Part shown: one piece after another, positions 6,168-34,719 of the stretch
Position numbering within the stretch: position 1 is the first letter of the stretch
Layout: every line of letters starts with the position of its first letter
NCBI GenBank assembly: GCA_965224065.1
Contig: CBDCYF010000005.1
Location: 2,175,616 to 2,239,615 of the forward strand
DNA length: 64,000 nucleotides
Source: Candidatus Multivoradales bacterium
GTDB taxonomy: Bacteria > Acidobacteriota > Thermoanaerobaculia > Multivoradales > JAHEKO01
Reading direction: 5' to 3'
Program-made: the position numbers and the translations under genes
The notes under the pieces: generated by a model
The model's input: the letters and a program-made list of their open reading frames with translations, nothing else
What the model was told of the DNA's origin: nothing
The model's database searches: none

Positions 6168-6923
6168 TCAGAGCCGCCGGTAGCGTGCCGGATCGGCGGC
6201 GAGGATCAGCAGATCGCCGCGGCGGCGAACCTGTCCGGTGATCTCGACCGGCTCGGCGACAAAGTCGAGTACCCGGTCGTTGACGGCAGCGCCGTCCTCG
6301 TCGGTGAGCAGAAAATGACGGTAGTCCCCGTCCGCGGTCTCGACCCTCAAGACCGGAGGGATGCCCCCGCTGATACAGCGGGTGGCGCAGGCGCGGTGGG
6401 GCTTGCCGCGGCCGGGCTTCATCACCCCCAGAAAACACTTGCTGTCGACGATCTCGCCGCGCAGGGTCCGGCGGCCGAGATCGACCACGGCCTGGCGGCT
6501 CGCCTGCCTCTGCTCGAGCGGTTCGACGCTGCCCGCGACCATTTCGATCATGTGCTCGCCTTCGCGGTAGATGAGCGAGCCCCGGAGGCGTACCCGCTGC
6601 CCCTCGAGCCCCCCGGTCTCGGGCTCAGCGCCGTGCTTGCCAAAAGCGACGAGCAGGAACCGCGCGGCGGTCGTCTCTCCGAGCTGCACCGGGGCATCGA
6701 GCAGGAGCACCGGGTGCGGCCGCTCGCTCACGACGCCTTCGAAATCGCGAACCACCCCGAACTCGAAGACCCCGGGATCGAAGCGGTCCTGCAAGACGGC
6801 CAGTGCCGCCGCGACGCCCGCTCCGGCCACCAGCAGCAAAACGACGACACGCCGTAGAAAGCCCGCCAGCCCGGCCGGGGCCTGTTTCTGATAGCCGACA
6901 TAGAAGTCGTCGCGGCCGCTCAT
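6168..6923 (-). CDS. hypothetical membrane-anchored protein (one N-terminal TM helix); last gene of the Rieske operon
   Basis: ATG at 6923-6921 overlaps the upstream stop (ATGA). MSGRDDFYVGYQKQAPAGLAGFLRRVVVLLLVAGAGVAAALAVL..., Cys-containing C-terminal region. No family recognised. Confidence 0.45.
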   Translation of the reverse strand: MSGRDDFYVGYQKQAPAGLAGFLRRVVVLLLVAGAGVAAALAVLQDRFDPGVFEFGVVRDFEGVVSERPHPVLLLDAPVQLGETTAARFLLVAFGKHGAEPETGGLEGQRVRLRGSLIYREGEHMIEMVAGSVEPLEQRQASRQAVVDLGRRTLRGEIVDSKCFLGVMKPGRGKPHRACATRCISGGIPPVLRVETADGDYRHFLLTDEDGAAVNDRVLDFVAEPVEITGQVRRRGDLLILAADPARYRRL

Positions 6924-7978
6924 CGGGTGCCTTCCTGAGCCGCGCCGATCGTCGCCGGCTCGACCGGGGTTCCTGCCGGGTTGGGCCGCGGATGGACCAG
7001 CACGCGATCCCCTTCGACTCGCACGCGGAAGGTCGGGACCTTCTCGGTAAACGGAGGCGGTGAAGAGCCGTTCTCCGGCCGGTACTGGAACCCGTGCCAG
7101 GGGCAGGTAATGCATCCGTCGATGATCCTGCCCTCGCCGAGCGGGCCATTCTGATGCTGACAGACATTCGAGACCACCGAGATCTTGCCGTCGTAGCGAA
7201 AGACCGCCACCCGCTCGCCCGCCAGGCAGACGATACGAGCACGCTTCTCGGCGATGTCACCCACCCGGCAGGCTTCGACATAGCCATCCGCGTCTCCAGC
7301 CGCCTGAAGCTCGCGGTCGCCGGCGCGCTCGCGCCAGCCCGCCACCAGATGGAGTCCGAGCACCCAGACCAGACCCAGCCCAAGCAGGCCGGCCAACACC
7401 GGGTGCCGCTCGGATTGCAGTACGCCGAGCGCCACGTGGAGCACGATCAGCCCGTAGGCAACGTAGACCATCATATGGAGCGTCTTCCACACCGGCGCCG
7501 TCAGGTTGGCGAGCCAGAAATCGTGGCTGGTCGCGGCCATCAAGAAGAGGATCGCCAGCGCCGCCAGCCCCAGCGGCTGGAACGGAAACTGCGCCAGATC
7601 CCCCCAGCGACCGTTCGAGGTCAAGACGCTCACCAGCGGGTTGACGTCGCCGAGAGCGTGAAACTGGAAGATCGAAAAACCGCCGTGGACGAGCGCGAGA
7701 AAGAACAGAGTCACGCCCATGTGGCGGCGGTTGTAGAGCAGCGGCAGAAAGCGCGTGTCGAGCCGGCAAAGCGGGCCGATCGAAAGAATGACATGGAGCA
7801 GCAGCAGCGCCGCAGTGCCGAAGGCGCGGATGAGAAGCGTTTCGACGGTGGCGTTGGGACGCGCCAGCGCCCCCAGTCCCACAAACACCACCAGATACAG
7901 GAGCACCCCGGCGAGAAGCGCGCGGTCGTAGATCTTCTTCTGCCGGTTCCAGCCGACAAACCGGTAAGCGTGGCTCAT
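6920..7978 (-). CDS. membrane di-heme-b (ferric-reductase/MsrQ-like) domain fused to a C-terminal Rieske [2Fe-2S] domain
   Basis: 352 aa. N-terminal ~220 aa carry multiple TM helices with conserved His (LLLHVILS, LALVHGGFSIFQFH, ATSHDFW, IVLHVALG), resembling the Ferric_reduct heme-b domain. C-terminal CQHQNGPLGEG...CITCPWHGFQY is a Rieske CxH...CxxH motif. Confidence 0.65.
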   Translation of the reverse strand: MSHAYRFVGWNRQKKIYDRALLAGVLLYLVVFVGLGALARPNATVETLLIRAFGTAALLLLHVILSIGPLCRLDTRFLPLLYNRRHMGVTLFFLALVHGGFSIFQFHALGDVNPLVSVLTSNGRWGDLAQFPFQPLGLAALAILFLMAATSHDFWLANLTAPVWKTLHMMVYVAYGLIVLHVALGVLQSERHPVLAGLLGLGLVWVLGLHLVAGWRERAGDRELQAAGDADGYVEACRVGDIAEKRARIVCLAGERVAVFRYDGKISVVSNVCQHQNGPLGEGRIIDGCITCPWHGFQYRPENGSSPPPFTEKVPTFRVRVEGDRVLVHPRPNPAGTPVEPATIGAAQEGTR

Positions 7979-8112
7979 CGCTGGGCCTCGACTAAGTTCT
8001 CTTCATACGGGCGCTCGGGCCTGGCCGCCAGCGCCGCGAGAAAAAGCACCAGGGCCACCACCGCGATGATCGCCACCAGCCAGAAATGGCGTCGGCGCAG
8101 CGGCCGGATCAC
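7975..8112 (-). CDS. putative small single-TM protein (45 aa, GTG start)
   Basis: GTG at 8112-8110 overlaps the TGA of the upstream ORF (GTGA). VIRPLRRRHFWLVAIIAVVALVLFLAALAARPERPYEENLVEAQR. Stop overlaps the start of the downstream membrane-Rieske gene. Confidence 0.25.
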   Translation of the reverse strand: MIRPLRRRHFWLVAIIAVVALVLFLAALAARPERPYEENLVEAQR

Positions 8113-8402
8113 CGCCGCGTCTCCTTGTGCGACGAAAAGACCGGCCGGCCGGAGCGCGTGAGGTCTCGGTGAGGGTTGCGCTCTTCCGGGGGCGACGCGC
8201 CCCGAATCCACCGCCGCGCCAGCAGCGGCCACAAGGCCGCGGTCGCGGGCAAGATCGCCAGCCGGAACCCCCAGCTACCGCCCACGGCCTGCGGGTCGAT
8301 CCGCTGAGCGCCGCGGATCACAAAGGCAATCCCAAAGAGGAGACCTATGCCCAGGTACACGCCGGTTACGAGTAGCAGCCAACTCGCGATTGTCTCGGTC
8401 AT
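8109..8402 (-). CDS. putative small 2-TM membrane protein
   Basis: MTETIASWLLLVTGVYLGIGLLFGIAFVIRGAQRIDPQAVGGSWGFRLAILPATAALWPLLARRW... The C-terminal tail is low complexity, so the true end or frame is uncertain. Confidence 0.3.
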   Translation of the reverse strand: MTETIASWLLLVTGVYLGIGLLFGIAFVIRGAQRIDPQAVGGSWGFRLAILPATAALWPLLARRWIRGASPPEERNPHRDLTRSGRPVFSSHKETRR

Positions 8403-8432
8403 CTGTTCCGCCGGTTTTGGAGGTTCACGCCT

Positions 8433-10403
8433 TCAGACCAGCTCCGGATCGGCCACGACCTCGACCAGGCTGGGACCGTCGTGCGCCAGTGCCCTGTCTA
8501 GCGCTTCGTCCAGGTCCTCCTTGTCGGTCACCCGGATACCCAGGGCCCCGCACAGCTCCGCGTATTTCGAGAAATCCGGATTGTGAAGCGAGGTCTGCCA
8601 AACCTCCCAGTTGCCCGATCGCTGCTCCTTGGAGATCTTGCCCAGCTCCGAGTTGTTGAGCAGCACGTGGGTGATGTTCATGCCGTACTTGACCGCGGTG
8701 GTGATCTCGCCCAGATACTGGCCAAAGCCGCCGTCGCCGGTCACCGCCACCACCGGGCGGCCCTTGAAGCGCGGATCGTCTTCCTGGGTCGCCGCCCACG
8801 CCCCCATCGCCGCCGGATAGCCAAAGCCGATCGAGCCCAGATACCCCGACATCAAAACGGCCTGCCGGCTGCATTCGAAGTAGCGCCCGAACGAGTAGGT
8901 GTTGTTGCCGACGTCGACCGCGATGACGGCGTCCTCGGGCACCTTGCGGTTCATGGCGGCAAACACCGCCGAGGACGAGACGCCCCGGCCGCGCTCTTCG
9001 GCCTGGCGCCGCTCCTTCTCGTGGCGCCAGATGGCCCACCGCTCGGCGATCTCGGGCCGCTGGTCGACCGTATCGATCCCGTCGCCCAGCTCGTCTCGCA
9101 ACAGCCGCGCGGTCACCCCGATCTCGCCCCACACCGGCACCTTGACGGCGTGGAACTTGCCCAGGATCATCGGGTCGTAGTCGACCTGGACGATCGGACG
9201 CTTGGGGGTGATCCCGGTGTGGTTCGAAAAGCTGGCGCCAAAGACCAGCAGGGCGTCGGACTCGTTCATGAAGTAGCTGGCGATCGGCGTGCCGCTCCGG
9301 CCCAGGACGCCACAGCCCAGCGTGTGGTGGTCCGAAACCAGGCCCTTGCCCTTGAAGGTGGTGAGCACCGGGCTGTTCAAACGCTCGGCCAGCTCGAGGA
9401 TGGCATCCATCTCGAAGCGGGCGCCGTGGCCAACGATGATCACCGGCCGCTTCGATCCGCGGATCACATCGAGTGCCCGGTCCAGGGACTCTCGGGGGGG
9501 CGCAATCTCGCGCGGCGCCACCCGACCCTCAGGGCGGCTCGCTTTGGCATTGGGCGGCGCTTCGAGCGTCTGGACCTCGTCGGGAAAGATGAGATGCGAC
9601 ACGCCCCGGTTGAGGATGGCGCTCTTGGCCGCCAGGTTGACCAGCTCGGCGTGGCGGGAGGTGTGGAGCACCGGCTGGCTCCACTGGGCGACCTTGCCAA
9701 AGGCCGCCGACAGATCGACCTCCTGAAACGCCCCCGGCCCGAGCACCTGGGTATCCACCTGGCCGGTGAGCGCAAGGACCGGCGAACGGTCCACGTTGGC
9801 GTCCCACAGGCCGGTCAGCAGATTGGTCGCGCCCGGCCCGGCGATGGCCAGACAGGCTGCCGGCCGGCCGGTCAGCTTGCCGTAGGCCGAGGCGGCAAAC
9901 GACGCCGCGGCCTCGTGGCGGATGCCGTAGAACGTCAGGTTGCCGGCCTCCTCCTGCCGTCGCAGCGCGTCGGCCAGACCGAGGTTGGAGTGCCCGACCA
10001 TGCCCCAGACATGGCGGATGCCCCAGTTGACCATCGTCTCGGCCATCACGTCGGTCACCGTCGGGACGTGAGTCTCCTCGGGCGCAAAACCGACATAGAC
10101 ACCGTCCTTGCGCTCTTCGACCGGGAACGTCGCCACCCCGTCGTCAAAGCCCGGAGCCTTACCGGTGAGCGGATCGTAGTCCCAACCATGCCAGGGGCAT
10201 CGCAGCAGACCGTTCTCGATCGAGCCCTCTCCCAACGGCCCGCCCTGGTGGGGACAGCGATTGTCGAGCGCGCCGTACTCGCCGTTGTGACGCGTCATAC
10301 AGACCGTGGTGTGCTCGCAGGTCACCGGCTTGACCCGGCCTTCGGCCAGCTCGTCCGGTTCTAAAACCTTCAGCCAGACTCTTTCGCTGGTGTCGCTCGG
10401 CAT
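8433..10403 (-). CDS. Rieske [2Fe-2S] domain fused to a thiamine-diphosphate-dependent enzyme (pyruvate-oxidase/acetolactate-synthase-like)
   Basis: 656 aa. N-terminal CPHQGGPLGEGSI...LLRCPWHGWDY. The remainder has TPP_enzyme N/M/C-like regions including the GDG-X-NN ThDP motif AVTGDGGFGQYLGEITTAVKYGMNITHVLLNNSELG. Confidence 0.75.
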   Translation of the reverse strand: MPSDTSERVWLKVLEPDELAEGRVKPVTCEHTTVCMTRHNGEYGALDNRCPHQGGPLGEGSIENGLLRCPWHGWDYDPLTGKAPGFDDGVATFPVEERKDGVYVGFAPEETHVPTVTDVMAETMVNWGIRHVWGMVGHSNLGLADALRRQEEAGNLTFYGIRHEAAASFAASAYGKLTGRPAACLAIAGPGATNLLTGLWDANVDRSPVLALTGQVDTQVLGPGAFQEVDLSAAFGKVAQWSQPVLHTSRHAELVNLAAKSAILNRGVSHLIFPDEVQTLEAPPNAKASRPEGRVAPREIAPPRESLDRALDVIRGSKRPVIIVGHGARFEMDAILELAERLNSPVLTTFKGKGLVSDHHTLGCGVLGRSGTPIASYFMNESDALLVFGASFSNHTGITPKRPIVQVDYDPMILGKFHAVKVPVWGEIGVTARLLRDELGDGIDTVDQRPEIAERWAIWRHEKERRQAEERGRGVSSSAVFAAMNRKVPEDAVIAVDVGNNTYSFGRYFECSRQAVLMSGYLGSIGFGYPAAMGAWAATQEDDPRFKGRPVVAVTGDGGFGQYLGEITTAVKYGMNITHVLLNNSELGKISKEQRSGNWEVWQTSLHNPDFSKYAELCGALGIRVTDKEDLDEALDRALAHDGPSLVEVVADPELV

Positions 10404-10421
10404 GGATCTCTTCGCCGCCCG

Positions 10422-12041
10422 CTAGAGCGGGACGGCGCCTCCGTAGTGGACGCCGGTGAGGTAGGCAACGTCTCGTTTCCAGGTCGTCAGGTCCTCGATG
10501 CGGAAGTCCGCCAGACGAGAGTGGCCGCAGGCCCGCGCCAGCAGCTTCATCAGCTCGACCGAGGCGCCAAAAAACCGCGCCAACCGCTCGGCCGCCTCGT
10601 CCACCGGCAGGCGTTCGCGCAGTTGCGGTTTCTGCGTCGCGATCCCGACCGGGCAGTTGTTGGTGTGGCACGCCCGCATACCGAGACAGCCGATCGCCTG
10701 GATCGCCGCGTTCGACACCGCGACGCCGTCGGCGCCCAGCGCCAGCGCCTTTGCAAAGTCGGCGGGAGTGCGGAGCCCGCCGGTGATGATCAACGTGACC
10801 TCTCCGCTCTTGCCTCTGAGATCGAGATGCTGCCGCGCCCGCGCCAGCGCCGGCAACGTCGGCACCGAGATGTTGTCGCGAAAGATCAGCGGGGCCGCCC
10901 CCGTGCCCCCGCCACGGCCGTCCAGGATGACGTAGTCCACGCCGATCCGGAGCGCCGCGTCGATGTCGTCCTCGATGTGCTGGGCCGAAAGCTTGAACCC
11001 GATCGGAATGCCGCCCGTGGACTCGCGCACCTCGTCGGCAAAGTGACGAAAGGGCTCCACGTCGTCCCAATCGGGGAAGCGCGACGGCGAGACCGCCTGC
11101 TGCCCCTCCTCGAGACTCCGGACCTCCGCGATCTTGCCCACGACCTTCTCGCCCGGCAGGTGTCCGCCGGTTCCGGTCTTCGCCCCCTGGCCGCCCTTGA
11201 AGTGAAAGGCCTGCACCCCCTGGAGCTTGTCCATCGAGAAACCGAAGCGCGCCGAGGCGAGCTCGTAGAAATAGCGGCTGTTCGCTCCCTGCTCCTCGGG
11301 CAGCATTCCCCCTTCGCCCGAACAGATCCCGGTGCCGGCGAGCTCCGCCCCTTTTGCGAGAGCCACCTTGGCCTCGAAGGACAGCGCGCCAAAGCTCATG
11401 TCCGAGACAAAGAGCGGAATGTCGAGCACCAGCGGCTTGGCGGCGTTTGGGCCGACCACCAGCTCGGTGCCCACCGGTGTGTCGTCGAGCTGGGGCACGC
11501 GCGCGAGCTGGGCGGTGACGAACTGGAGATCGTCCCAGACCGGGAGCTGGCTTCTCGGCACGCCCATTGCCGCCACCGGGCCGTGGTGCCCGACCTTTTC
11601 CAGCCCGTTGGCCGCCAGCTCGCGGATGAACTTGACGTATGGCTCGGCCGGGCTGCCTTTCGAGTGGTCCTGAAAGACTCCTTGGTAGGCGTCGCGCGCA
11701 TAGGGCTGCGGGTTATCACGCTCCCAGGCGGCAACCTCGTCCCGGTCGACCCAGACGCCGCCGTCTTCGACCCAGGAAGAGAACTTGTGGAGCCTCTCCT
11801 CCGGGGCGTAGGAGCTCACCCCGCTTCGAAACTGATAGTCCCAGTTGTGGACTCCGCAGATGATGTCGTCACCACGCACAAAGCCGTCGGACATCAAGGC
11901 ACCACGGTGCTGGCAGCGACCGTAGAGCACCGAGACTTCCTCGTCGTACCGAACCACCACCAAGTCGACGTTGGTAACCAGCGCGTGGGCCGGCTGGCGG
12001 TCGGCCAGCTCTACCCACTCGGCGATCTTCACCTTGTCCAT
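10422..12041 (-). CDS. Rieske [2Fe-2S] domain fused to a glutamate-synthase-like FMN-binding (GltS domain-2) protein
   Basis: 539 aa. N-terminal CQHRGALMSDG...CGVHNWDY. C-terminal ~400 aa match the glutamate-synthase FMN-domain family (GEGGMLPEE, DGRGGGTGAAP, ITGGLRTPADFAKALALGADGV, CHTNNCPVGIATQ). Confidence 0.75.
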   Translation of the reverse strand: MDKVKIAEWVELADRQPAHALVTNVDLVVVRYDEEVSVLYGRCQHRGALMSDGFVRGDDIICGVHNWDYQFRSGVSSYAPEERLHKFSSWVEDGGVWVDRDEVAAWERDNPQPYARDAYQGVFQDHSKGSPAEPYVKFIRELAANGLEKVGHHGPVAAMGVPRSQLPVWDDLQFVTAQLARVPQLDDTPVGTELVVGPNAAKPLVLDIPLFVSDMSFGALSFEAKVALAKGAELAGTGICSGEGGMLPEEQGANSRYFYELASARFGFSMDKLQGVQAFHFKGGQGAKTGTGGHLPGEKVVGKIAEVRSLEEGQQAVSPSRFPDWDDVEPFRHFADEVRESTGGIPIGFKLSAQHIEDDIDAALRIGVDYVILDGRGGGTGAAPLIFRDNISVPTLPALARARQHLDLRGKSGEVTLIITGGLRTPADFAKALALGADGVAVSNAAIQAIGCLGMRACHTNNCPVGIATQKPQLRERLPVDEAAERLARFFGASVELMKLLARACGHSRLADFRIEDLTTWKRDVAYLTGVHYGGAVPL

Positions 12042-12126
12042 GAGTCCTCCGTAATCCAGCCGCTGCGCCGGCGCAGTCTACAAGGCCAAGTCAGCGCTTG
12101 GCCCGTACTACACCGGTTAGGATGGG

Positions 12127-12537
12127 GTGGCGATGAAAGGACTGAGCTGGATCCTCCGAGGCATTGCTGCTGTCATCCTCTTGCAGACGCTGTTCTTCAA
12201 GTTCACCGCGGCGCCCGAGTCGGTCTTTATCTTCGAGACTCTCGGAATGGAGCCCTGGGGCCGGATCGGCTCCGGTGTGGCCGAGCTCGTCGCCGCGGTC
12301 CTCCTCCTCGTGCCGGCAACCACCCTATACGGCGCGATCCTGGCGTTGGGATTGATGGCAGGCGCCATTGTGAGCCATCTGACCCGTCTGGGTATCGAGG
12401 TTCAGGGTGACGGTGGCCTGTTGTTCGGTCTGGCACTGGTCGTTACCGCATGCTGTCTCAGCCTGGTGGCGCTCGACCGGCGCCGTCTCGGTGAGCTTTG
12501 CGCGCGTATCCTCGGGCAGGGCCGGAAGAAAGGGTAA
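12127..12537 (+). CDS. DoxX-family membrane protein
   Basis: 136 aa, four predicted TM helices. Divergent from the Rieske operon. Confidence 0.6.
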   Translation: MAMKGLSWILRGIAAVILLQTLFFKFTAAPESVFIFETLGMEPWGRIGSGVAELVAAVLLLVPATTLYGAILALGLMAGAIVSHLTRLGIEVQGDGGLLFGLALVVTACCLSLVALDRRRLGELCARILGQGRKKG

Positions 12538-14033
12538 GCGCCAAACCCACCGTGGCCGAACCTCGAGAAGACGACCGACCGAAAAGCTCCGACGGCTGGA
12601 GCGGCGCAGTCGGAGGCCGGTCCGAGCGGACGCTCGAACGGCTCTTCGAAGTCGCGTCGGCACAGATCGCGACCGAGCATGAGCTCACCAGCCGCGACCG
12701 CGACCCCGAGGAGCTCTATGACGAGCTGGGGATCGCGCTCTCTGAAGAAGGCGTCTCCTTCGACGAGGTCGTCGACCGGTTGCGGGCCATCCTGGCGGCG
12801 ACTCCGTCCGCGGCGGGTCGCCGCTTCCTCAACCAGCTTTTTGGCGGCCGCGATGAGATCGCCAGCCTGGCCGAGATGCTCACCCCGCTTGTCAACACTT
12901 CGATGTATACCTACAAGGTGGCCGGCCCGCAGGTGCTCCTCGAGCGGGAAGTGCTGGCCCGCATGGGCGCAAAGATCGGTCTGGCCGACGGCGAGGGAAT
13001 CCTGTGTCCCGGCGGCTCGCTGGCTACGCTGACGGCGATGCTGATCGCGCGCAACGAAGCTCTCGACGGGGTGCGGGACCAGGGGCTTGGAGCCATGGCC
13101 GGGCGGGGCTTGACCCTCTACACATCGGTCGACGGCCACTATTCGGTACGCAAGAACGCCGGCATTCTGGGTCTGGGAAGAAGCTCGGTACGCGAGATCG
13201 CGACCGACGACGGCGGCCGTATGGACGTCGAGGCCTTGCGCCAGACTATCCGCTCGGATCGGGCCGCCGGCCACCGGCCCTTGCTGGTCAACGCCACCGC
13301 CGGCTCGACGGTGCTGGGTGCCTTTGACCCGATCCACGAGATCGGCCTCATCGCCCAGGACGAAGGAATGTGGCTGCACGTCGACGGGGCCCTGGGCGGC
13401 TCGGTGGCGCTCTGTTCGCGGCACCGAGACCTGATCGACGGCTCCGAGCTGGCCGACTCCTTTGTCTGGAATGCCCACAAGATGATGGGTGTGCCGCTGC
13501 CGTGCTCGGCGTTGCTCTTGGCCCGGCGTGGCCAGCTTCAGCGCCAGCTTGCCGAGCCGGCCGACTATCTCTTTCAAAGCCACGGCGACGAGCTCAACCC
13601 GGGCACGCGTTCGATCCAGTGCGGGCGCCGCAACGATGCGCTCAAGCTGTGGGCGGCCTGGAAGCTCCACGGAGACCGTGGCTACGACCGACGGCTGAGT
13701 CGCCTGTTCGACCTGGCCCAATACACGGCCTCGCGGGTGGAGGCTGACCCGGCTTTCGAGCTGCTCTTGCCACCGGAATCGATCAACGTGTGTTTCCGGG
13801 TGAAGGGAAGGTCGAGCGCTGACATCTGCGGGCAGCTCGACCGCGAGGGCCGTCTGTTGATCGGACACGGCAAGGCGCAAGGGCGACAGGCGATCCGGCT
13901 GGTCTGTGTGAACCTCGATCTCGAGGAACGAGACATCGACGACGCCTTGGGTGCGATCCGACAAGCCGCCGCGTCTCTGCCGGCCGTCGAAGACCCGACG
14001 CCCGACAATCCCATCCCATCGGCCGCTCGATGA
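12498..14033 (+). CDS. PLP-dependent group II amino-acid decarboxylase (GadB/CSAD/DABA-decarboxylase-like)
   Basis: 511-aa ORF. An alternative in-frame GTG at 12552 lies just after the DoxX stop. PLP-lysine motif NAHKMMGVPLPCS, plus HVDGALGGS. Confidence 0.8.
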   Translation: MRAYPRAGPEERVSAKPTVAEPREDDRPKSSDGWSGAVGGRSERTLERLFEVASAQIATEHELTSRDRDPEELYDELGIALSEEGVSFDEVVDRLRAILAATPSAAGRRFLNQLFGGRDEIASLAEMLTPLVNTSMYTYKVAGPQVLLEREVLARMGAKIGLADGEGILCPGGSLATLTAMLIARNEALDGVRDQGLGAMAGRGLTLYTSVDGHYSVRKNAGILGLGRSSVREIATDDGGRMDVEALRQTIRSDRAAGHRPLLVNATAGSTVLGAFDPIHEIGLIAQDEGMWLHVDGALGGSVALCSRHRDLIDGSELADSFVWNAHKMMGVPLPCSALLLARRGQLQRQLAEPADYLFQSHGDELNPGTRSIQCGRRNDALKLWAAWKLHGDRGYDRRLSRLFDLAQYTASRVEADPAFELLLPPESINVCFRVKGRSSADICGQLDREGRLLIGHGKAQGRQAIRLVCVNLDLEERDIDDALGAIRQAAASLPAVEDPTPDNPIPSAAR

Positions 14034-14812
14034 AGACGCTCAGCCAGGTCTTCCCGCTTCACCGCGAACAGCTTCCCACCACAACCCTGGGGGAGAGCCA
14101 CTACGAGATCCGATTCGCCCAGACTTCGGAAGAGCTCGATGCCATCCAGAAGCTGCGTTTCGAAGTGTTCAACCTCGAGATGGGTGAAGGCCTCGAAGAG
14201 TCATTCGAGAGCGGCCGCGACGCCGACGCCTTCGACCCGGTATGCCACCACTTGATGGTCACCGACCGCAACACCGACTCGATCGTCGGCTGTTACCGGA
14301 TGCAGACCGCCGCGATGGCAAGCGCCAATCGTGGTTTCTATTCGTCGAGCCTCTTCGATCTCTCAACCCTCCCCGAGACCGCAACCGAAAAGTCCATCGA
14401 AGTGGGCCGCGCGTGCGTCGCCAAGAGCCATCGCAGCTCGCTGGTGCTCTTTTTGCTCTGGAAGGGCCTGGCTCTCTATGTCGCCCACAACCAGGTGCGG
14501 TATCTCTTTGGCTGCTGCTCGCTGACCAGCCAGGATCCGGCGGAGGGCAGCGCGGTCTTGCGCTATCTCGAAGAGGGCGGGCGTATGCACCCGGAGTGGT
14601 CGATCCAACCGGTCCCCGACTGTGTGTGCCCCATCGACCGCACCGTCGAGGCGGCCACCGGGGTGCCGACGCTCTTCCGGACATATCTTCGATATGGCGC
14701 CAAGGTCTGCGGTCCCCCGGCGATCGATCGCGAGTTCAAGACCATCGATTACCTGGTGGTGCTCGATATCGACGGGCTGTCTCCGCGAACCCACCGGATG
14801 TTCTTCGATTAA
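14030..14812 (+). CDS. olsB: OlsB-like N-acyltransferase (Acetyltransf_5, hemolysin-like; lyso-ornithine-lipid synthase or N-acyl amino acid synthase family)
   Basis: 260 aa. ATGA overlap with the decarboxylase stop. Pattern LRFEVFNLEMGEG...HLMVTDRNTDSIVGCYRM...LVLFLLWKGLALYV is typical of OlsB-like/N-acyl amino acid synthases. Confidence 0.65.
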   Translation: MKTLSQVFPLHREQLPTTTLGESHYEIRFAQTSEELDAIQKLRFEVFNLEMGEGLEESFESGRDADAFDPVCHHLMVTDRNTDSIVGCYRMQTAAMASANRGFYSSSLFDLSTLPETATEKSIEVGRACVAKSHRSSLVLFLLWKGLALYVAHNQVRYLFGCCSLTSQDPAEGSAVLRYLEEGGRMHPEWSIQPVPDCVCPIDRTVEAATGVPTLFRTYLRYGAKVCGPPAIDREFKTIDYLVVLDIDGLSPRTHRMFFD

Positions 14813-14844
14813 CCCGGGGCCTCACGGGTGCCGAGAGAGCTGGA

Positions 14845-15630
14845 GTGAAAACCCTCCGCGCCGGTTGGCGTCTTCTGCTCGTCGCCAAGACGACGGCTTT
14901 TTTCTACGCCCTGGTGCTTGCCGGGACGGCGGTAGTCGCTTTCGCGCCGCGCCAGCGCATCCGTTGGCGCGATTTCTGTTTCCGCAACTGGTCGCGGTGG
15001 GTGCTTGCGATTCTCCACGTCACCGTCGAGCACCAGGGTACGCCACCTCGGCCACCCTTCTTTCTGGTCGCGAATCATCTGAGCTACATCGACATCCTGG
15101 TGCTGGCCAGCCACGTCGACGCGGTGTTCATCGCCAAATCCGAAGTTCGGTCCTGGCCGATCATCGGGCTTCTCTGCCGCTCGGTCGGCACGCTCTTTGT
15201 CGACCGCGGGTCACGGCGCGACATCCCGCGGGTGATCGCCGAGATCGATCGTGTGCTGGGCCACGGCCAGGGAATCGTCCTCTTCCCCGAGGGCACCAGC
15301 ACCCCGGGTTTCGAGGTCGGCCGCTTCCGGCCCTCGCTCCTCGAGGTGGCCGCGCGCGCCGGGATCCCGGTCTCCCACGCCAGCCTGAGCTACGACACCG
15401 GCGACGAATCAAAGCCGGCCCACCTCACCGTTTGCTGGTGGGGAGACATGGAATTCCCCGGCCACTTCTGGCGTCTGCTGGCACTCCCGAGGTTCACCGC
15501 AAAACTGTCGTTTGGACGCGACACGATTCAGGACGACGACCGCAAGCGTCTCGCCGATCGCCTGCAAGCCGCGGTCGAGCGGCAATTCGTTCCCGTCGTG
15601 TCCGAGGGCGCACCCACGGAGGCGGCGTGA
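14845..15630 (+). CDS. olsA: PlsC-family lyso-lipid O-acyltransferase (OlsA-like)
   Basis: GTG at 14845, 33 nt after the olsB stop. The long ORF 14242..15630 is an out-of-frame read-through artefact. HxxxxD motif in FLVANHLSYIDILVL and the FPEGTSTPG motif. Confidence 0.7.
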   Translation: MKTLRAGWRLLLVAKTTAFFYALVLAGTAVVAFAPRQRIRWRDFCFRNWSRWVLAILHVTVEHQGTPPRPPFFLVANHLSYIDILVLASHVDAVFIAKSEVRSWPIIGLLCRSVGTLFVDRGSRRDIPRVIAEIDRVLGHGQGIVLFPEGTSTPGFEVGRFRPSLLEVAARAGIPVSHASLSYDTGDESKPAHLTVCWWGDMEFPGHFWRLLALPRFTAKLSFGRDTIQDDDRKRLADRLQAAVERQFVPVVSEGAPTEAA

Positions 15631-15652
15631 GGCGGTCGGGCGAGCCACAAGC

Positions 15653-18226
15653 GTGAAGCGCCGGATCTTTCTCGCCCTGGGGGCTGTCTATCTCGCTCTT
15701 CTGGCGATGTCGCACCTCGTGCGCTCGCAGCGCGCCGCACCGGTCCCGCCACCCGAACTTGCCGTCCTGGAGCTGTCCGCAGGATCCGATGGCCGTGACC
15801 CGGTCCGCCTCGGCTACAAGAGCTGGGGCCACTCGACCGACGTTGCGGTCGACGTTGCGGTAGTTCTCCTCCACGGCAGCCCGGGATCCAGCCGTGATTT
15901 CGACGCGCTCGGGCCCCGGCTGGCCGACGACCGCCGGGTGCTGGCGCCGGATCTGCCCGGGTTCGGGTTCTCGACCCAAAGCGTGCCCGACTACTCGATC
16001 GCGGCGCATGCCGGCTATGTTCAGGCGTTTCTGGATCGCCTGGATGTCGGACAGGTCCACGTCCTGGGCTTCAGCATGGGAGGCGGGGTCGCGCTCGAGC
16101 TCGCGGCGCGGCAACCCGATCGGGTGCGCTCGGTGACCCTCCTGTCTTCAATCGGCGTCCAGGAGCTCGAGCTCCTCGGAAGCTACCCCCTCAACCACGG
16201 CGTCCACGGGTTGCAACTCGCCGGCCTGTGGTTGCTCCACGAAGCGGTGCCGCATTTCGGGATACTCGACGGATTCCCGCTCAATGTCCCCTACGCCCGC
16301 AACTTCTTCGACACCGACCAGCGGCCACTGCGAGGCGTTCTGGAGCGGCTCGAGATGCCGATCCTCATCGTCCACGGCGAACACGACTTTCTGGTGCCCG
16401 CGGCGGCCGCCCGCGAGCACCATCGCCTGGCACCTCAGAGCGAGCTGGCGATGATCGACGCCGGCCACTTCATGGTCTTCCGGGACAACCCATCGCTGGC
16501 GTCGACGGTCGGGGATTTCTTGGGACGGGCCGAAGCCGGCCGGGCAGTCCGGCGGGCGGAAGCTCTCTCCGAGCGGCGGGCCGCGGCGCTGGTGCCGTTT
16601 GACGCCGCACAGGTTCCCGCGGCCACCGGCGTCACCCTGGCGGTCTTGATCGCGCTGATCGCGATCGCCACCTTGATCAGCGAAGACGCCACCTGCATCG
16701 CGACCGGCTTGCTGGTCGCGCAGGGCCGCGTCGGGTTTCTGGCGGGCAGCGTGGCTTGCGCCGTCGGCATCCTGGTCGGCGACTTGATGATCTACGCGGC
16801 CGGACGATTTCTGGGGCGACCCGGGCTCCGTCATGTGCCGCTCAAATGGCTCGTCTCGCCACGCGCCCTCGCTCGGGGCTCGGCGTGGTTCGCTCGCCGC
16901 GGACCCGCGGTGATCGTGTCGAGCCGGTTTTTGCCCGGGACTCGGGTGGCCACGTACTTCGCCGCCGGTCTTCTCAAAACCAGCTTCTGGAAGTTTCTGG
17001 GCTATTTTCTGATCGCGGTTCTCGCCTGGACGCCGCTCCTGGTCGGTCTGTCCGCCTGGCTCGGGAGCCGGCTGTCGCAGCACTTCGAGGCGTTTCAGCG
17101 CTGGGCGCTCCCCGGCGCCGTTGCCCTCGCGCTTCTCGCCACCGTCACCCTAAAGCTCGCGCGGGCGCTGTCGAGCTGGAAGGGACGCCGCCTTCTTCTG
17201 GGCGCGCTCGGCCGCAAGCTCAAGTGGGAGTTCTGGCCTTGGTGGCTGATCTATGTTCCGGTCGCCCCGTGGATCGCCTGGGTGGGGCTGCGTCACCGGA
17301 GCCCGACGCTCTTTACCGCCGTCAACCCGGCGATTCCGGCAGGCGGGTTTGTCGGTGAGTCGAAGGCGGCGATTCTGGGATCGATCGACCCCCGGTGGGT
17401 GGCGCGGTTTCGGAAAATTCCCGCCGGGGGATCACCCGCGTCCCGACTCGGGATGGCCCAAGACTTCTTGCGCCGCGAGCGGCTCGAGCTGCCGGTGGTG
17501 GTCAAGCCCGACGTCGGCGAGCGGGGGACTGGATTTGCGATCGTCCGCACCGAACAAGAGCTCGAAGAAGCGATCGCGGAGCAGAGTCACGATCTGCTCG
17601 TTCAGGAGTACGTCGGGGGCGTCGAGCTGGGGATCTTCTACACCCGACGGCCCCAGGAAGACAGCGGCCGGATCTTCTCGATCACCGAGAAGAGACTGAC
17701 CACACTGACTGGCGACGGAACGTCGAGCATCGAGAAGCTGATCCTCGCCGATCGGCGCGCCGTGCTGCAGGCCCCGATCCACCTCGACAAGATGGCCGGC
17801 GAGCTCGACCGCGTCCCGGAAGCCGGCGAACAAGTGGCGCTGGTCGAGATGGGCGTCCACAGTCGGGGGGCGCTTTTTCTGGATGGCTCCGGCTTTCACA
17901 CCGAGGCCCTCGAACGGACGATCGACGGGATCAGCCGTTCCTTCGATGGGTTCTTCTTTGGACGCTACGACGTGCGAGCGCCGTCCCACGACGCTTTTCG
18001 CCGCGGCGAGGGTCTCAAGATCCTCGAGCTCAACGGTGTGACCTCCGAGGCCACCCATATCTACGACCCAAAGAACTCATTTTTGGACGCGACCCACTTA
18101 CTCCGCCGCCAGTGGACGCTGGCCTTCGAGATCGGAGCACAGAACCGGGCCCGCGGTGCGCGACCTGTCGGTATCGGCACGCTGGCCCGGCTGGTCTTCC
18201 GGCACTATTTTCCCGAGAGCCGCTAA
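15653..18226 (+). CDS. three-domain fusion: alpha/beta-hydrolase + DedA/SNARE-associated membrane domain + C-terminal ATP-grasp ligase
   Basis: GTG at 15653, 23 nt after the olsA stop. HGSPGSSRDF..GFSMGGGVA (GxSxG) hydrolase fold. VIVSSRFLPGTRVATYFAAGLL DedA motif with several TM helices. C-terminal VVVKPDVGERGTGFAIVRTEQELEEAI...LVQEYVGGVELGIFY ATP-grasp. Confidence 0.7.
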   Translation: MKRRIFLALGAVYLALLAMSHLVRSQRAAPVPPPELAVLELSAGSDGRDPVRLGYKSWGHSTDVAVDVAVVLLHGSPGSSRDFDALGPRLADDRRVLAPDLPGFGFSTQSVPDYSIAAHAGYVQAFLDRLDVGQVHVLGFSMGGGVALELAARQPDRVRSVTLLSSIGVQELELLGSYPLNHGVHGLQLAGLWLLHEAVPHFGILDGFPLNVPYARNFFDTDQRPLRGVLERLEMPILIVHGEHDFLVPAAAAREHHRLAPQSELAMIDAGHFMVFRDNPSLASTVGDFLGRAEAGRAVRRAEALSERRAAALVPFDAAQVPAATGVTLAVLIALIAIATLISEDATCIATGLLVAQGRVGFLAGSVACAVGILVGDLMIYAAGRFLGRPGLRHVPLKWLVSPRALARGSAWFARRGPAVIVSSRFLPGTRVATYFAAGLLKTSFWKFLGYFLIAVLAWTPLLVGLSAWLGSRLSQHFEAFQRWALPGAVALALLATVTLKLARALSSWKGRRLLLGALGRKLKWEFWPWWLIYVPVAPWIAWVGLRHRSPTLFTAVNPAIPAGGFVGESKAAILGSIDPRWVARFRKIPAGGSPASRLGMAQDFLRRERLELPVVVKPDVGERGTGFAIVRTEQELEEAIAEQSHDLLVQEYVGGVELGIFYTRRPQEDSGRIFSITEKRLTTLTGDGTSSIEKLILADRRAVLQAPIHLDKMAGELDRVPEAGEQVALVEMGVHSRGALFLDGSGFHTEALERTIDGISRSFDGFFFGRYDVRAPSHDAFRRGEGLKILELNGVTSEATHIYDPKNSFLDATHLLRRQWTLAFEIGAQNRARGARPVGIGTLARLVFRHYFPESR

Positions 18227-23162: not shown

Positions 23163-23208
23163 CTCGCGCCTCGACGGCCGGGAAAGGGCCGGCACTGCCC
23201 TCGCCGCC

Positions 23209-34643: not shown

Positions 34644-34719
34644 TGGTAGCGCGTACGGGATTCGAACCCGTGTTACCGGCGTGAGAGGCCGGCGTCCTAG
34701 ACCCCTAGACGAACGCGCC
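34644..34719 (-). tRNA. tRNA-Glu(CUC): tRNA-Glu (anticodon CUC)
   Basis: Reverse complement GGCGCGTTCGTCTAGGGGTCTAGGACGCCGGCCTCTCACGCCGGTAACACGGGTTCGAATCCCGTACGCGCTACCA. Aligns position-by-position with bacterial tRNA-Glu (D-arm TCGTCTAGxGGxxxAGGAC, T-arm GGTTCGAATCC). Anticodon loop CUCUCAC gives CUC. CCA is encoded. Confidence 0.85.

What the first reader, a model, noticed from the sequence alone, without database searches (positions are those of the whole stretch)
12127..18226. DoxX - PLP decarboxylase - OlsB-like - OlsA-like - (hydrolase/DedA/ATP-grasp) operon: candidate pathway for a modified aminolipid
Five same-strand genes with overlapping or near-abutting start and stop codons: ATGA at 14030, a 33-nt gap, a 23-nt gap. 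An amino-acid decarboxylase of the GAD/CSAD/DABA-DC type precedes a canonical OlsB(N-acyl)/OlsA(O-acyl) pair. This suggests the acylated head group may be a decarboxylated amine or a further tailored amino acid rather than plain ornithine. The ATP-grasp ligase in the last gene could add a second amino acid, as in tauro- or lysyl-type headgroups. This gene combination is not the standard olsBA locus.
Basis: partly seen in the sequence, partly recalled or inferred. Interest (0 to 1): 0.7.

Follow-up and report, generated by a model that had tools for sequence, protein, structure and literature searches.

The report
Aminolipid operon with head-group ligase fusion
Five co-directional genes in an Acidobacteriota-like genome probably make an ornithine-lipid-type membrane lipid and then attach an amine (here probably taurine or hypotaurine) to its head group, which offers a testable candidate for an ATP-dependent lipid-modifying enzyme whose gene has never been identified.

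Summary
DoxX (12133-12537), a PLP decarboxylase (12552-14033), an OlsB-like N-acyltransferase (14030-14812), an OlsA-like O-acyltransferase (14845-15630) and an 857-aa α/β-hydrolase–DedA–ATP-grasp fusion (15653-18226) lie on one strand, with a 4-nt overlap and gaps of 14, 32 and 22 nt.

Comparative data change the picture. The fusion family occurs in at least 567 species genomes from several phyla. OlsB lies upstream on the same strand in 43 of 57 informative loci. The conserved core is OlsB-OlsA-(DinB-like)-(TANGO2-like)-fusion-(DoxX), often preceded by a ferric-reductase–Rieske protein and an unknown membrane protein. The window carries that pair in a divergent operon (6168-12041).

The decarboxylase is lineage-specific. 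It is CSAD-type (F/S/Y substrate triad), not DABA-type. Unrelated aromatic-type decarboxylases sit beside the fusion in other lineages.

The ATP-grasp domain is closest to cyanophycin synthetase, GshF and Ddl, which ligate a terminal carboxylate to an amine.

Best reading: OlsBA builds an acyloxyacyl aminolipid, the ATP-grasp amidates its head-group carboxylate with the decarboxylase's amine, DedA flips it, and the hydrolase domain remodels it. None of the chemistry is shown. This is a new variant of a known kind, of moderate to high interest.

The parts
12133..12537 (+). DoxX-family small membrane protein (an alternative GTG start is at 12127). First gene of the operon.
   Evidence: PF13564 DoxX_2 scores 31.9 bits, above its cutoff of 26.3. 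A DoxX homologue lies within about 1 kb of the fusion gene, mostly just downstream, in 16 of 80 related loci. Function unknown.
12552..14033 (+). Group II PLP-dependent decarboxylase of the CSAD/GADL1/GAD clade, 493 aa. Predicted cysteine sulfinate/cysteate decarboxylase, producing hypotaurine or taurine.
   Evidence: PF00282, E 7.7e-74. Best solved relatives are human and mouse CSAD at 314 and 311 bits, ahead of GADL1 (264) and GAD65/67 (about 240). The CSAD recognition triad is present as F97/S117/Y119, with PLP lysine K310. GADL1 has Y/S/Y and GAD has S/N/F at these positions. The triad definition is taken from the Fig. S2 legend of bioRxiv 10.64898/2026.08.27.747329. The RhbB DABA-decarboxylase model scores 187 bits, far below its cutoff of 900.
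14030..14812 (+). OlsB-like N-acyltransferase, 260 aa. Its start overlaps the decarboxylase stop (ATGA).
   Evidence: PF13444 Acetyltransf_5, E 5.8e-31. Best NCBIfam models are OlsB equivalogs (162 and 148 bits, full length) but both are below their cutoffs of 320 and 350. GlsB scores only 30 bits. Homologues lie upstream of the fusion gene in 43 of 57 loci.
14845..15630 (+). OlsA-like (PlsC-family) O-acyltransferase, 261 aa.
   Evidence: PF01553, E 2.5e-23. Best NCBIfam models are OlsA equivalogs (128 and 114 bits, cutoff 300). The translation contains the HX4D box 'NHLSYID' and 'FPEGT'. Homologues are present in 37 of 57 loci.
15653..15721 (+). N-terminal signal-anchor of the fusion protein (MKRR followed by hydrophobic residues 5-23).
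   Evidence: Hydropathy and charge analysis. The N-in orientation is inferred from the positive-inside rule.
15722..16621 (+). α/β-hydrolase (serine esterase) domain of the fusion, residues about 24-323. Inferred to be periplasmic.
   Evidence: PF00561 scores 122 bits and PF12697 scores 72 bits. The nucleophile S141 (in GFSMGGG), D245 and H272 are invariant in 19 homologues. The nearest solved relatives are generic esterases, PHB depolymerase and the membrane phospholipase PlaF, 6i8w.
16622..17287 (+). DedA/VTT membrane domain plus a Trp-rich membrane anchor, residues about 324-545.
   Evidence: PF09335 VTT_dom scores 60.3 bits, above its cutoff of 33.9. The best NCBIfam model is the DedA-type undecaprenyl-phosphate transporter UptA, 73.6 bits, below its cutoff of 250. 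Hydrophobic segments and K/R-rich loops are shown.
17288..18226 (+). ATP-grasp amide ligase domain, residues about 546-857. Must be cytoplasmic because it needs ATP.
   Evidence: Profile search against PDB: cyanophycin synthetase 2 (7ta5, E 1.8e-7), CphA1, Ddl, RimK and GshAB. AF2 model with pLDDT 78. Foldseek top hits: 7ta5, 7wae, 3ln7/3ln6 (GshF), 7lg5 and Ddl, at E 1e-9 to 1e-7. Invariant K618, Q651/E652 and E792/N794. The domain family has 1517 50%-identity clusters at E<=1e-30. Among the best 150 representatives, 72 are hydrolase+DedA+ATP-grasp, 61 are DedA+ATP-grasp and 16 are ATP-grasp alone.
12042..12132 (.). Divergent intergenic region of 91 nt between the DoxX operon and the minus-strand redox operon.
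   Evidence: Read from the sequence. No σ70-consensus promoter was found.
10422..12041 (-). Rieske [2Fe-2S] domain fused to a glutamate-synthase-type FMN domain, 539 aa. Part of the extended conserved neighbourhood.
   Evidence: PF00355 plus PF01645, E 2.7e-89. It is co-directional with the decarboxylase-OlsB-OlsA-fusion genes in L081 and L084, and nearby in L003, L004, L008 and L087.
8433..10403 (-). Rieske domain fused to a pyruvate-oxidase-like TPP enzyme, 656 aa.
   Evidence: PF00355 plus TPP_enzyme_N/M/C. The best NCBIfam model is pyruvate oxidase, 383 bits, below its cutoff of 742. In L081 and L084 its stop overlaps the decarboxylase start.
7975..8402 (-). Two small predicted membrane proteins (8109-8402 and 7975-8232).
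   Evidence: ORFs. The first is 69% identical to the 88-aa gene that precedes the ferric-reductase–Rieske gene in L084. Equivalent small genes occur in L087 and L088.
6920..7978 (-). Ferric-reductase-like (MsrQ/YedZ-type haem b) membrane domain fused to a Rieske ferredoxin domain, 352 aa.
   Evidence: PF01794 plus PF00355, with MsrQ and Rieske-ferredoxin models matching. Together with the next gene it lies immediately upstream of OlsB on the same strand in about 17 of 80 loci, and elsewhere in the cluster in 5 more.
6168..6923 (-). Conserved unknown membrane-anchored protein ('orfX', 251 aa). Its start overlaps the stop of the ferric-reductase–Rieske gene.

Best explanation
The five genes form an operon for a head-group-modified acyloxyacyl aminolipid.

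1. [quoted passage not shown] The amino acid is ornithine-like but its identity is unproven. The OlsA-like enzyme then esterifies the second fatty acid.
2. Inferred from the closest relatives of the ATP-grasp domain: the cytoplasmic ATP-grasp domain of the fusion protein activates the free α-carboxylate of the lipid head group as an acyl-phosphate and couples it to an amine. This is the same chemistry as CphA, GshF, Ddl and RimK.
3. Inferred from the CSAD triad and the translationally coupled position: in this lineage the amine is hypotaurine or taurine, made by the co-transcribed CSAD-type decarboxylase. The product would be a cerilipin-like tauro- or hypotauro-aminolipid.
4. Inferred from the domain fusion and topology: the DedA domain moves the product to the outer leaflet, and the N-terminal α/β-hydrolase domain, predicted periplasmic, de-esterifies or remodels it.

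The design resembles MprF plus its periplasmic hydrolase, but it is tRNA-independent and acts on aminolipids. DoxX and the divergent Rieske/ferric-reductase operon belong to the same conserved neighbourhood. Their role is unknown.

What is shown: gene order, domains, catalytic residues and cross-phylum linkage. What is not shown: any chemistry.
For: - Tight same-strand packing.
- Best full-length matches are to OlsB and OlsA models.
- OlsB lies upstream of the fusion on the same strand in 43 of 57 informative loci, and OlsA in 37. These loci come from Acidobacteriota, Gemmatimonadota, Planctomycetota, Rhodothermia and others. Start and stop codons overlap in L087 and L088.
- The ATP-grasp domain is closest, by sequence and by fold, to ligases that extend a terminal α-carboxylate with an amine. 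Its catalytic residues are invariant.
- DedA+ATP-grasp is the constant core of the family in 133 of the best 150 representatives. That argues for a lipid substrate.
- The decarboxylase is CSAD-like with the F/S/Y triad and the PLP lysine. Its stop overlaps the OlsB start here, and also in L081 and L084.
- Independent evidence for a decarboxylase-to-fusion link: unrelated aromatic-type group II decarboxylases sit beside the fusion in other lineages. In L054 the order decarboxylase, TANGO2-like gene, fusion has 11- and 16-nt gaps. In L061 the decarboxylase is convergent, 13 nt away.
- Literature: taurine transfer to the ornithine-lipid carboxylate is ATP-dependent and its gene is unknown. Ser-Gly and Orn-Ser-Gly head groups also exist, and no enzyme for the extension step is named (PMC12971839).
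Against: - There are no lipid data for any organism carrying the cluster.
- The decarboxylase is absent from most clusters. Only one lineage has the CSAD type, so taurine cannot be the general substrate unless it is supplied from elsewhere.
- Close CSAD-type paralogues at 58-64% identity sit in unrelated contexts. The enzyme may therefore have a general metabolic role.
- OlsB- and OlsA-like scores are below equivalog cutoffs.
- No homologue could be checked in Gluconobacter, the only genus known to make tauro-ornithine lipid. The best 80 genome hits include no Alphaproteobacteria.
- The topology is only a hydropathy and charge inference.
- The conserved DinB-like, TANGO2-like, Rieske and orfX partners have no place in this simple scheme.
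Confidence: 0.4

Rival explanations
1. The ATP-grasp adds an ordinary amino acid, such as Ser, Gly, Asp or Glu, to the aminolipid carboxylate, giving a dipeptide-type lipid like flavolipin. Alternatively it adds an amino acid to the free side-chain amine of an Orn/Lys head group. On this view the CSAD-type decarboxylase is only a syntenic passenger that makes a soluble osmolyte or antioxidant, or it belongs functionally to the Rieske-POX and Rieske-GltS genes.
For: - Most clusters lack any decarboxylase.
- The closest ATP-grasp relatives all use amino acids as nucleophiles.
- Dipeptide and tripeptide aminolipids are known.
- In L081 and L084 the decarboxylase start overlaps the stop of the Rieske-TPP gene.
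- Paralogous decarboxylases stand alone elsewhere.
Against: - Here the decarboxylase stop overlaps the OlsB start.
- Three further, unrelated group II decarboxylases have been recruited next to the fusion in other lineages. That is hard to explain if decarboxylases are irrelevant to the system.
Confidence: 0.22
2. The OlsB-like enzyme directly N-acylates the decarboxylase product, for example hypotaurine or taurine. The result is an N-acyl(oxyacyl)-amine lipid with no amino-acid carboxylate.
For: - The decarboxylase is translationally coupled to the OlsB-like gene.
- The OlsB-like protein is below OlsB equivalog cutoffs, so its specificity is open.
Against: - OlsB orthologues at 50-60% identity work in clusters without a decarboxylase.
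- A taurine amide lipid would offer neither a carboxylate nor an amine for the always-linked ATP-grasp domain.
- All characterised OlsB, GlsB and GluB enzymes acylate α-amino acids (PMC12971839).
Confidence: 0.1
3. The fusion protein does not act on the OlsBA product. It could be a tRNA-independent aminoacyl-phosphatidylglycerol-type synthase/flippase/hydrolase, or a polyprenyl-phosphate-linked system. It would then be clustered with OlsBA only because both belong to one membrane-remodelling or envelope-stress regulon, together with the ferric-reductase–Rieske and orfX redox pair.
For: - The DedA domain matches the undecaprenyl-phosphate transporter UptA best.
- ATP-grasp enzymes can also form esters. 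This rests on established knowledge of VanA and microviridin ligases.
- 14 of 57 informative loci lack OlsB upstream, and 4 lack all four upstream partners.
- A periplasmic-type MsrB follows orfX in L081 and L084.
Against: - OlsB linkage of 75% across phyla, with overlapping start and stop codons, is typical of one pathway rather than a regulon.
Confidence: 0.13
4. The ATP-grasp is an L-amino-acid ligase that makes a soluble dipeptide or aminoacyl-amine at the membrane. The OlsB-like enzyme then acylates that product.
For: - L-amino-acid ligases are ATP-grasp enzymes. One appears among the weak PDB hits (3vot).
- This route would also yield dipeptide-type head groups.
Against: - Constant fusion to a DedA lipid-transporter domain, 133 of 150 representatives, is not expected for an enzyme with soluble substrates.
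- For flavolipin, glycine lipid is the intermediate. That means the lipid is made first and extended afterwards.
Confidence: 0.05

Closest known systems
OlsB/OlsA two-step ornithine lipid pathway (Sinorhizobium, Brucella, Rhodobacter)
   Same: Adjacent N-acyltransferase (PF13444) and PlsC-type O-acyltransferase (PF01553, with HX4D and PEGT motifs). The best NCBIfam models are OlsB and OlsA, matched over their full length.
   Different: Scores are about half the equivalog cutoffs, so amino-acid specificity is open. The pair is embedded in a larger cluster with a decarboxylase, a three-domain fusion, DoxX and redox proteins. None of these is part of described ols loci.
Cerilipin (tauro-ornithine lipid) formation in Gluconobacter cerinus
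   Same: It is described as ATP-dependent transfer of taurine to the ornithine-lipid carboxylate, with the gene unknown (PMC12971839). The window pairs an ATP-dependent carboxylate-amine ligase domain with a CSAD-type decarboxylase that would make taurine or hypotaurine.
   Different: No homologue could be examined in Gluconobacter. The fusion family was seen in Acidobacteriota, Gemmatimonadota, Planctomycetota and others, but not in Alphaproteobacteria among the best 80 genomes. No tauro-lipid has been reported from these phyla.
Flavolipin and other dipeptide/tripeptide aminolipids (Ser-Gly, Orn-Ser-Gly) of Bacteroidota
   Same: The head group is extended by an amide bond at the carboxylate of a pre-formed aminolipid. 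Glycine lipid is the intermediate of flavolipin, and the review names no enzyme for the extension step.
   Different: That pathway starts from GlsB/GlsA. The window's N-acyltransferase scores 30 bits on the GlsB model against 162 on OlsB.
MprF (aminoacyl-PG synthase-flippase) with periplasmic hydrolases such as AcvB, and membrane-anchored PlaF
   Same: The logic is the same: a cytoplasmic head-group-modifying domain, a lipid-translocating membrane domain and a periplasmic α/β-hydrolase. PlaF (6i8w) is among the hydrolase domain's solved relatives.
   Different: There is no sequence relationship to MprF domains. Activation is by ATP-grasp, not aminoacyl-tRNA. The membrane domain is DedA/VTT. 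All three functions are on one polypeptide.
Cyanophycin synthetase G domain, GshF/GshAB, D-Ala-D-Ala ligase and RimK (ATP-grasp amide ligases)
   Same: These are the closest sequence and fold relatives. The Lys, Glu and Glu-x-Asn ATP/Mg residues are conserved.
   Different: Identity is only 14-20%. No Pfam ATP-grasp family reaches its cutoff (RimK 19.7 against 21). The domain is preceded by a Trp-rich membrane anchor and is fused to DedA.
Cysteine sulfinic acid decarboxylase (CSAD; mammalian, and Synechococcus PCC 7335)
   Same: It gives the best PDB match (314 bits). The F94/S114/Y116 triad and K305 are conserved. JGI annotates several homologues as sulfinoalanine decarboxylase.
   Different: The active-site loop reads G-H-Y instead of C-H-Y. 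No adjacent cysteine dioxygenase was found. The gene sits in a lipid operon.

Membership tests
OlsB (ornithine N-acyltransferase) | Full-length Acetyltransf_5 (PF13444) domain | tested here: met
   E 5.8e-31, 107.6 bits against a cutoff of 22.4. The OlsB models align over residues 22-258.
OlsB (ornithine N-acyltransferase) | Score at or above the NCBIfam OlsB equivalog cutoff | tested here: not met
   162.2 bits against 320, and 147.7 against 350. It is OlsB-like, not a certified equivalog.
OlsB (ornithine N-acyltransferase) | Ornithine as the acyl acceptor | not testable with these tools
   This needs an enzyme assay or lipid analysis.
OlsA (lyso-ornithine lipid O-acyltransferase) | PlsC-type acyltransferase domain with HX4D and PEGT motifs, next to olsB | tested here: met
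   PF01553, E 2.5e-23. 'NHLSYID' and 'FPEGT' are in the translation. It lies 32 nt after the OlsB-like gene.
OlsA (lyso-ornithine lipid O-acyltransferase) | Score at or above the NCBIfam OlsA equivalog cutoff | tested here: not met
   127.7 and 114.4 bits against a cutoff of 300.
Cysteine sulfinic acid decarboxylase (CSAD) | Group II PLP decarboxylase fold with the PLP lysine | tested here: met
   PF00282, E 7.7e-74. K310 lies in 'WNAHKMM' and aligns with hCSAD K305.
Cysteine sulfinic acid decarboxylase (CSAD) | Substrate-recognition triad F94/S114/Y116 (hCSAD numbering) | tested here: met
   The window has F97/S117/Y119. In the same alignments GADL1 shows Y/S/Y and GAD65/67 show S/N/F. The triad is present in 114 of the 120 closest homologues.
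Cysteine sulfinic acid decarboxylase (CSAD) | Decarboxylation of cysteine sulfinate or cysteate | not testable with these tools
   This needs an enzyme assay.
L-2,4-diaminobutyrate decarboxylase (RhbB/Ddc) | Score at or above the NCBIfam equivalog cutoff | tested here: not met
   187 bits against a cutoff of 900. Solved DABA decarboxylases score 124-160 bits, against 314 for CSAD.
ATP-grasp superfamily (carboxylate-amine ligases) | ATP-grasp fold with the conserved Lys, Glu and Glu-x-Asn nucleotide/Mg residues | tested here: met
   Foldseek probability is 1.00 to CphA, GshF and Ddl. K618, E652, E792 and N794 are invariant.
ATP-grasp superfamily (carboxylate-amine ligases) | Membership of a curated Pfam ATP-grasp family | tested here: not met
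   Only RimK matches, at 19.7 bits against a cutoff of 21, and over 53 residues.
DedA / VTT-domain membrane proteins | VTT domain above the Pfam cutoff | tested here: met
   PF09335 scores 60.3 bits against 33.9. The UptA equivalog scores 73.6 against 250, so it is not UptA.
α/β-hydrolase fold serine hydrolases | G-x-S-x-G nucleophile with Asp and His, conserved | tested here: met
   S141, D245 and H272 are invariant in 19 homologues. PF00561 scores 122 bits.
MprF (aminoacyl-PG synthase/flippase) | MprF synthase and flippase domains | tested here: not met
   No such Pfam domain appears in the fusion protein. The resemblance is in logic only.
Tauro-ornithine lipid (cerilipin) synthase | ATP-dependent transfer of taurine to the ornithine-lipid carboxylate. 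No sequence is known. | not testable with these tools
   The gene is unidentified as of March 2026 (PMC12971839), so there is no reference sequence to compare with.

The most novel reading that the evidence does not exclude
The hydrolase–DedA–ATP-grasp protein founds a new class of tRNA-independent lipid head-group ligase-flippases, an MprF analogue for aminolipids. It is the enzyme type responsible for carboxylate-amidated aminolipids, that is, tauro-ornithine-lipid-like and dipeptide-type lipids. Lineage-specific decarboxylases would set the amine: the CSAD type gives hypotaurine or taurine, and the aromatic type gives aryl-ethylamines. The co-conserved cytoplasm-to-periplasm electron conduit (Rieske, ferric-reductase, orfX) and the DinB-like and TANGO2-like enzymes would act on the same lipid, for example in redox cycling of a lipid-anchored sulfinate. 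If so, the cluster would also give a bacterial TANGO2 homologue a concrete lipid-amide context.
Probability: 0.25. Interest if true: 0.85.

Novelty: new variant of a known kind. Interest (0 to 1): 0.62.

Why it matters
Two steps of aminolipid head-group chemistry have products known since the 1970s but no gene: ATP-dependent taurine transfer to ornithine lipid, and extension of glycine lipid to Ser-Gly lipid (PMC12971839). This locus gives a concrete candidate that can be tested by expression.

The candidate family is large: at least 567 species genomes, and 1517 50%-identity clusters at E<=1e-30. It is wholly uncharacterised and common in Acidobacteriota and Gemmatimonadota, abundant soil phyla whose membrane lipids are poorly known.

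It would also assign a lipid substrate to a DedA domain. In related genomes it places TANGO2-like and DinB-like enzymes in a defined lipid pathway.

Tried and rejected
- The exact-match contig look-up for the window's own fusion protein found nothing. The source is therefore only inferred to be Acidobacteriota-like, from its nearest homologues.
- DinB-like and TANGO2-like genes, common in related clusters, were searched for in the window and are absent.
This is a weak negative.
- The Agnello 2013 paper that defines the CSAD motif is not held. The motif residues were taken instead from a preprint legend that cites it.
- Literature searches combining ornithine lipid, DedA, ATP-grasp, TANGO2 and DinB found no description of this cluster.
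- The AFDB Foldseek library was unavailable.
- The promoter scan found nothing, and all terminator-like hits are intragenic.
- The DABA-decarboxylase reading was rejected on scores and on the triad.
- I considered that the decarboxylase might act on the lipid head group itself. I rejected this on chemistry: the α-amine of an OlsB product is acylated, so PLP α-decarboxylation is not possible.
- A check for a homologue in Gluconobacter was not possible.

Full report
**Observation**

The window is about 66% G+C. Between 12.1 and 18.2 kb the + strand carries five ORFs:
- DoxX, 12133-12537. An alternative GTG start lies at 12127.
- A PLP decarboxylase. It most probably starts at GTG 12552, which matches the 493-aa public gene call, and ends at 14033.
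- An OlsB-like gene, 14030-14812.
- An OlsA-like gene, 14845-15630.
- An 857-aa gene, 15653-18226.

The junctions were read directly from the sequence. They are a 14-nt gap, an ATGA overlap, 32 nt and 22 nt.

**The acyltransferase pair**

The GNAT-like protein has a full-length Acetyltransf_5 domain. It matches the two OlsB equivalog models best (162 and 148 bits), far ahead of OlsF (91) and GlsB (30). The scores are about half the curated cutoffs.

The next gene is a PlsC-type acyltransferase with HX4D ('NHLSYID') and 'FPEGT'. It matches the OlsA models best (128 and 114 bits against a cutoff of 300).

The pair is therefore OlsB/OlsA-like. The amino acid it uses is not established.

**The decarboxylase**

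The NCBIfam hit to DABA decarboxylase is weak (187 bits against a cutoff of 900). Against solved structures the order is:

| Solved structure | Bits |
|---|---|
| Human and mouse CSAD | 314 and 311 |
| GADL1 | 264 |
| GAD65/67 | about 240 |
| DABA and aromatic decarboxylases | 175 or less |

The residues reported to recognise cysteine sulfinate and cysteate in human CSAD are F94, S114 and Y116, with PLP lysine K305 (citing Agnello et al. 2013). They align with F97, S117, Y119 and K310 of the window protein. In the same alignments GADL1 has Y/S/Y and the GADs have S/N/F. Among the 120 closest homologues, 114 keep F/S/Y.

I therefore read the enzyme as a hypotaurine- or taurine-forming decarboxylase. 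This is an inference from homology and the motif; no activity was tested. No cysteine dioxygenase was detected nearby (a weak test).

**The fusion protein**

Its N-terminus is a signal-anchor (MKRR plus a hydrophobic stretch). Then follow three domains:
- An α/β-hydrolase domain whose S141 (GFSMGGG), D245 and H272 are invariant in 19 homologues.
- A DedA/VTT membrane domain (PF09335, 60 bits). Its best NCBIfam relative is the undecaprenyl-phosphate transporter UptA, below cutoff.
- After a Trp-rich anchor, a roughly 310-residue domain that Pfam barely recognises (RimK, 19.7 bits).

A profile of that last domain finds cyanophycin synthetases, GshAB, Ddl and RimK in the PDB. An AF2 model with pLDDT 78 matches the same enzymes by fold, at E 1e-9 to 1e-7. 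K618, E652, E792 and N794 are invariant. All these relatives activate a terminal carboxylate and couple it to an amine.

Hydropathy and charge distribution suggest the hydrolase domain is periplasmic and the ATP-grasp domain cytoplasmic. This topology is an inference.

**Comparative genomics**

The fusion has more than 1800 close homologues. It was found in at least 567 of the species-representative genomes. The best 80 loci come from Acidobacteriota (Thermoanaerobaculia, Blastocatellia), Gemmatimonadota, Planctomycetota (Engelhardtia mirabilis), Rhodothermia, Verrucomicrobiota, Desulfobacterota, KSB1 and Calditrichota.

Among 57 loci with at least 3.5 kb of upstream sequence, the genes lying upstream on the same strand are:

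| Upstream gene | Loci out of 57 |
|---|---|
| OlsB | 43 |
| OlsA | 37 |
| DinB-like (about 175 aa) | 38 |
| TANGO2-like (about 245 aa) | 28 |

DoxX is adjacent in 16 of the 80 loci. A ferric-reductase–Rieske protein and an unknown 250-aa membrane protein (orfX) immediately precede OlsB in about 17 loci, and occur elsewhere in the cluster in 5 more. In two complete chromosomes the whole set forms one operon with overlapping stops and starts.

The ATP-grasp domain family has 1517 50%-identity clusters at E<=1e-30. Among the best 150 representatives, 72 are hydrolase+DedA+ATP-grasp, 61 are DedA+ATP-grasp and 16 are ATP-grasp alone. DedA plus ATP-grasp is thus the invariant core.

The window lacks the DinB-like and TANGO2-like genes. 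It does carry the redox half on the opposite strand, diverging from DoxX:
- Rieske–GltS-like, 10422-12041
- Rieske–pyruvate-oxidase-like, 8433-10403
- Two small membrane proteins, 7975-8402
- Ferric-reductase–Rieske, 6920-7978
- orfX, 6168-6923

**Where the decarboxylase fits**

Among the 80 loci, only L002 has the CSAD-type gene in the same position. Looking up close decarboxylase homologues found three more clusters, L081, L082 and L084. There the order Rieske-GltS, Rieske-TPP, decarboxylase, OlsB, OlsA, fusion is co-directional and translationally coupled. All of these belong to the window's own lineage, so this counts as one evolutionary event. More distant CSAD-type paralogues (58-64% identity) sit in unrelated contexts.

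Three other lineages, however, have a different group II decarboxylase beside the fusion. It is aromatic-amino-acid type, with best PDB hits to Trp and DOPA decarboxylases.
- In L054 the order is decarboxylase, TANGO2-like gene, fusion, with 11- and 16-nt gaps.
- In L061 the decarboxylase is convergent, 13 nt away.
- In L076 it is 4 kb away.

Such enzymes are typically present at one or two copies per genome, which is my own knowledge and not a measured background. On that basis, four independent adjacencies in about 80 twenty-gene neighbourhoods are more than I would expect by chance. This supports a functional link between a decarboxylase-made amine and the fusion enzyme.

**Mechanism**

The simplest scheme that uses every domain of the operon is as follows. 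OlsB and OlsA build an acyloxyacyl aminolipid with a free head-group carboxylate. The ATP-grasp domain amidates that carboxylate with an amine. In this lineage the amine is hypotaurine or taurine from the CSAD-type enzyme. DedA translocates the product, and the periplasmic esterase domain remodels or turns it over.

A March 2026 review states that taurine transfer to ornithine lipid (cerilipin) is ATP-dependent and that its gene is unknown. The same review notes that Ser-Gly and Orn-Ser-Gly head groups exist, with glycine lipid as the intermediate of flavolipin. So chemistry of the proposed kind exists and has no known enzyme.

I put about 0.4 on this scheme. The generic part, an aminolipid cluster with an ATP-grasp head-group ligase, is more likely than the specific taurine part.

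The main rivals are:
- The ATP-grasp adds an ordinary amino acid and the decarboxylase is peripheral (0.22).
- The fusion acts on another lipid and is only co-regulated (0.13).
- OlsB acylates the amine directly (0.10).
- The ATP-grasp is a soluble dipeptide ligase (0.05).

The scheme does not explain the DinB-like, TANGO2-like, Rieske, ferric-reductase and orfX partners. TANGO2 was recently proposed to be a Cys-Ntn hydrolase of lipid amides (PMC13044924). The related clusters' TANGO2-like proteins begin with Met-Cys.

**Comparison and novelty**

The system resembles MprF plus a periplasmic hydrolase in logic but is not a member of that family. It contains members of the OlsB-like, PlsC, CSAD-like, DedA, α/β-hydrolase and ATP-grasp families.

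I found no description of this cluster or of the fusion family. I rate it a new variant of a known kind: aminolipid biosynthesis with uncharacterised tailoring. Interest is about 0.6. It is entirely untested experimentally, but it makes an old open question directly testable.

Noticed in passing
window 6168-12041 (- strand): A six-gene operon diverges from DoxX: Rieske–GltS-like FMN protein, Rieske–pyruvate-oxidase-like TPP enzyme, two small membrane proteins, ferric-reductase(haem b)–Rieske, and an unknown membrane protein. Three different enzymes are each fused to a Rieske ferredoxin domain. Together they look like a private electron-transfer chain from a 2-oxoacid to the periplasm. The last two genes are conserved next to OlsB in many phyla.
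   Followed up: partly
[not shown]
   Followed up: yes
L005:8713-9959, L032:8680-9917, L026:9171-9941 and about 30 further loci: In most related clusters a DinB-like gene and a TANGO2-like (Cys-Ntn hydrolase-type, starting Met-Cys) gene sit between OlsA and the fusion. Both are absent from the window. This places a bacterial TANGO2 homologue inside an aminolipid operon.
   Followed up: partly
L054:7376-12568; L061:9935-14173; L076:9181-10668: Aromatic-amino-acid-type group II PLP decarboxylases, unrelated to the window's CSAD type (26-27% identity), lie next to the fusion gene in three other lineages. In L054 the decarboxylase is in an apparent operon with TANGO2-like and the fusion.
   Followed up: yes
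L084:18780-19352 and L081:16646-17218: A methionine-sulfoxide reductase B (SelR) follows orfX. In L084, the one whose translation was read, it has a lipoprotein-like N-terminus. This hints that the ferric-reductase–Rieske/orfX pair belongs to periplasmic redox repair, as MsrPQ does.
   Followed up: no
L088:13570-14430 and L085:1176-1967: TauE/SafE-family (sulfite/sulfonate exporter) genes lie near the cluster in L088 and near a stand-alone CSAD-type decarboxylase in L085. This weakly supports a sulfonate theme.
   Followed up: no
window 18223-22030 (-): Two paralogous DUF3857/transglutaminase-like proteins (627 and 658 aa) lie on the - strand downstream of the fusion gene. The first is convergent with it, and its 3' end overlaps the fusion's stop by 4 nt.
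   Followed up: no
window 22074-23195 (-): An ABC-transporter ATPase with a TOBE domain has no adjacent permease gene. Homologues occur in 10 of the related loci downstream of the fusion.
   Followed up: no
window 11900-18500: Terminator-like stem-loops are more frequent than in shuffled sequence (11 against 3.9 ± 2.2), but all lie inside coding regions. This is probably a composition effect of the G+C-rich sequence.
   Followed up: no
window 4469-5770 (+) and 34647-34719 (-): A PAS–GGDEF diguanylate cyclase lies upstream of the redox operon. The window has a single tRNA gene (Rfam, 61.9 bits).
   Followed up: no
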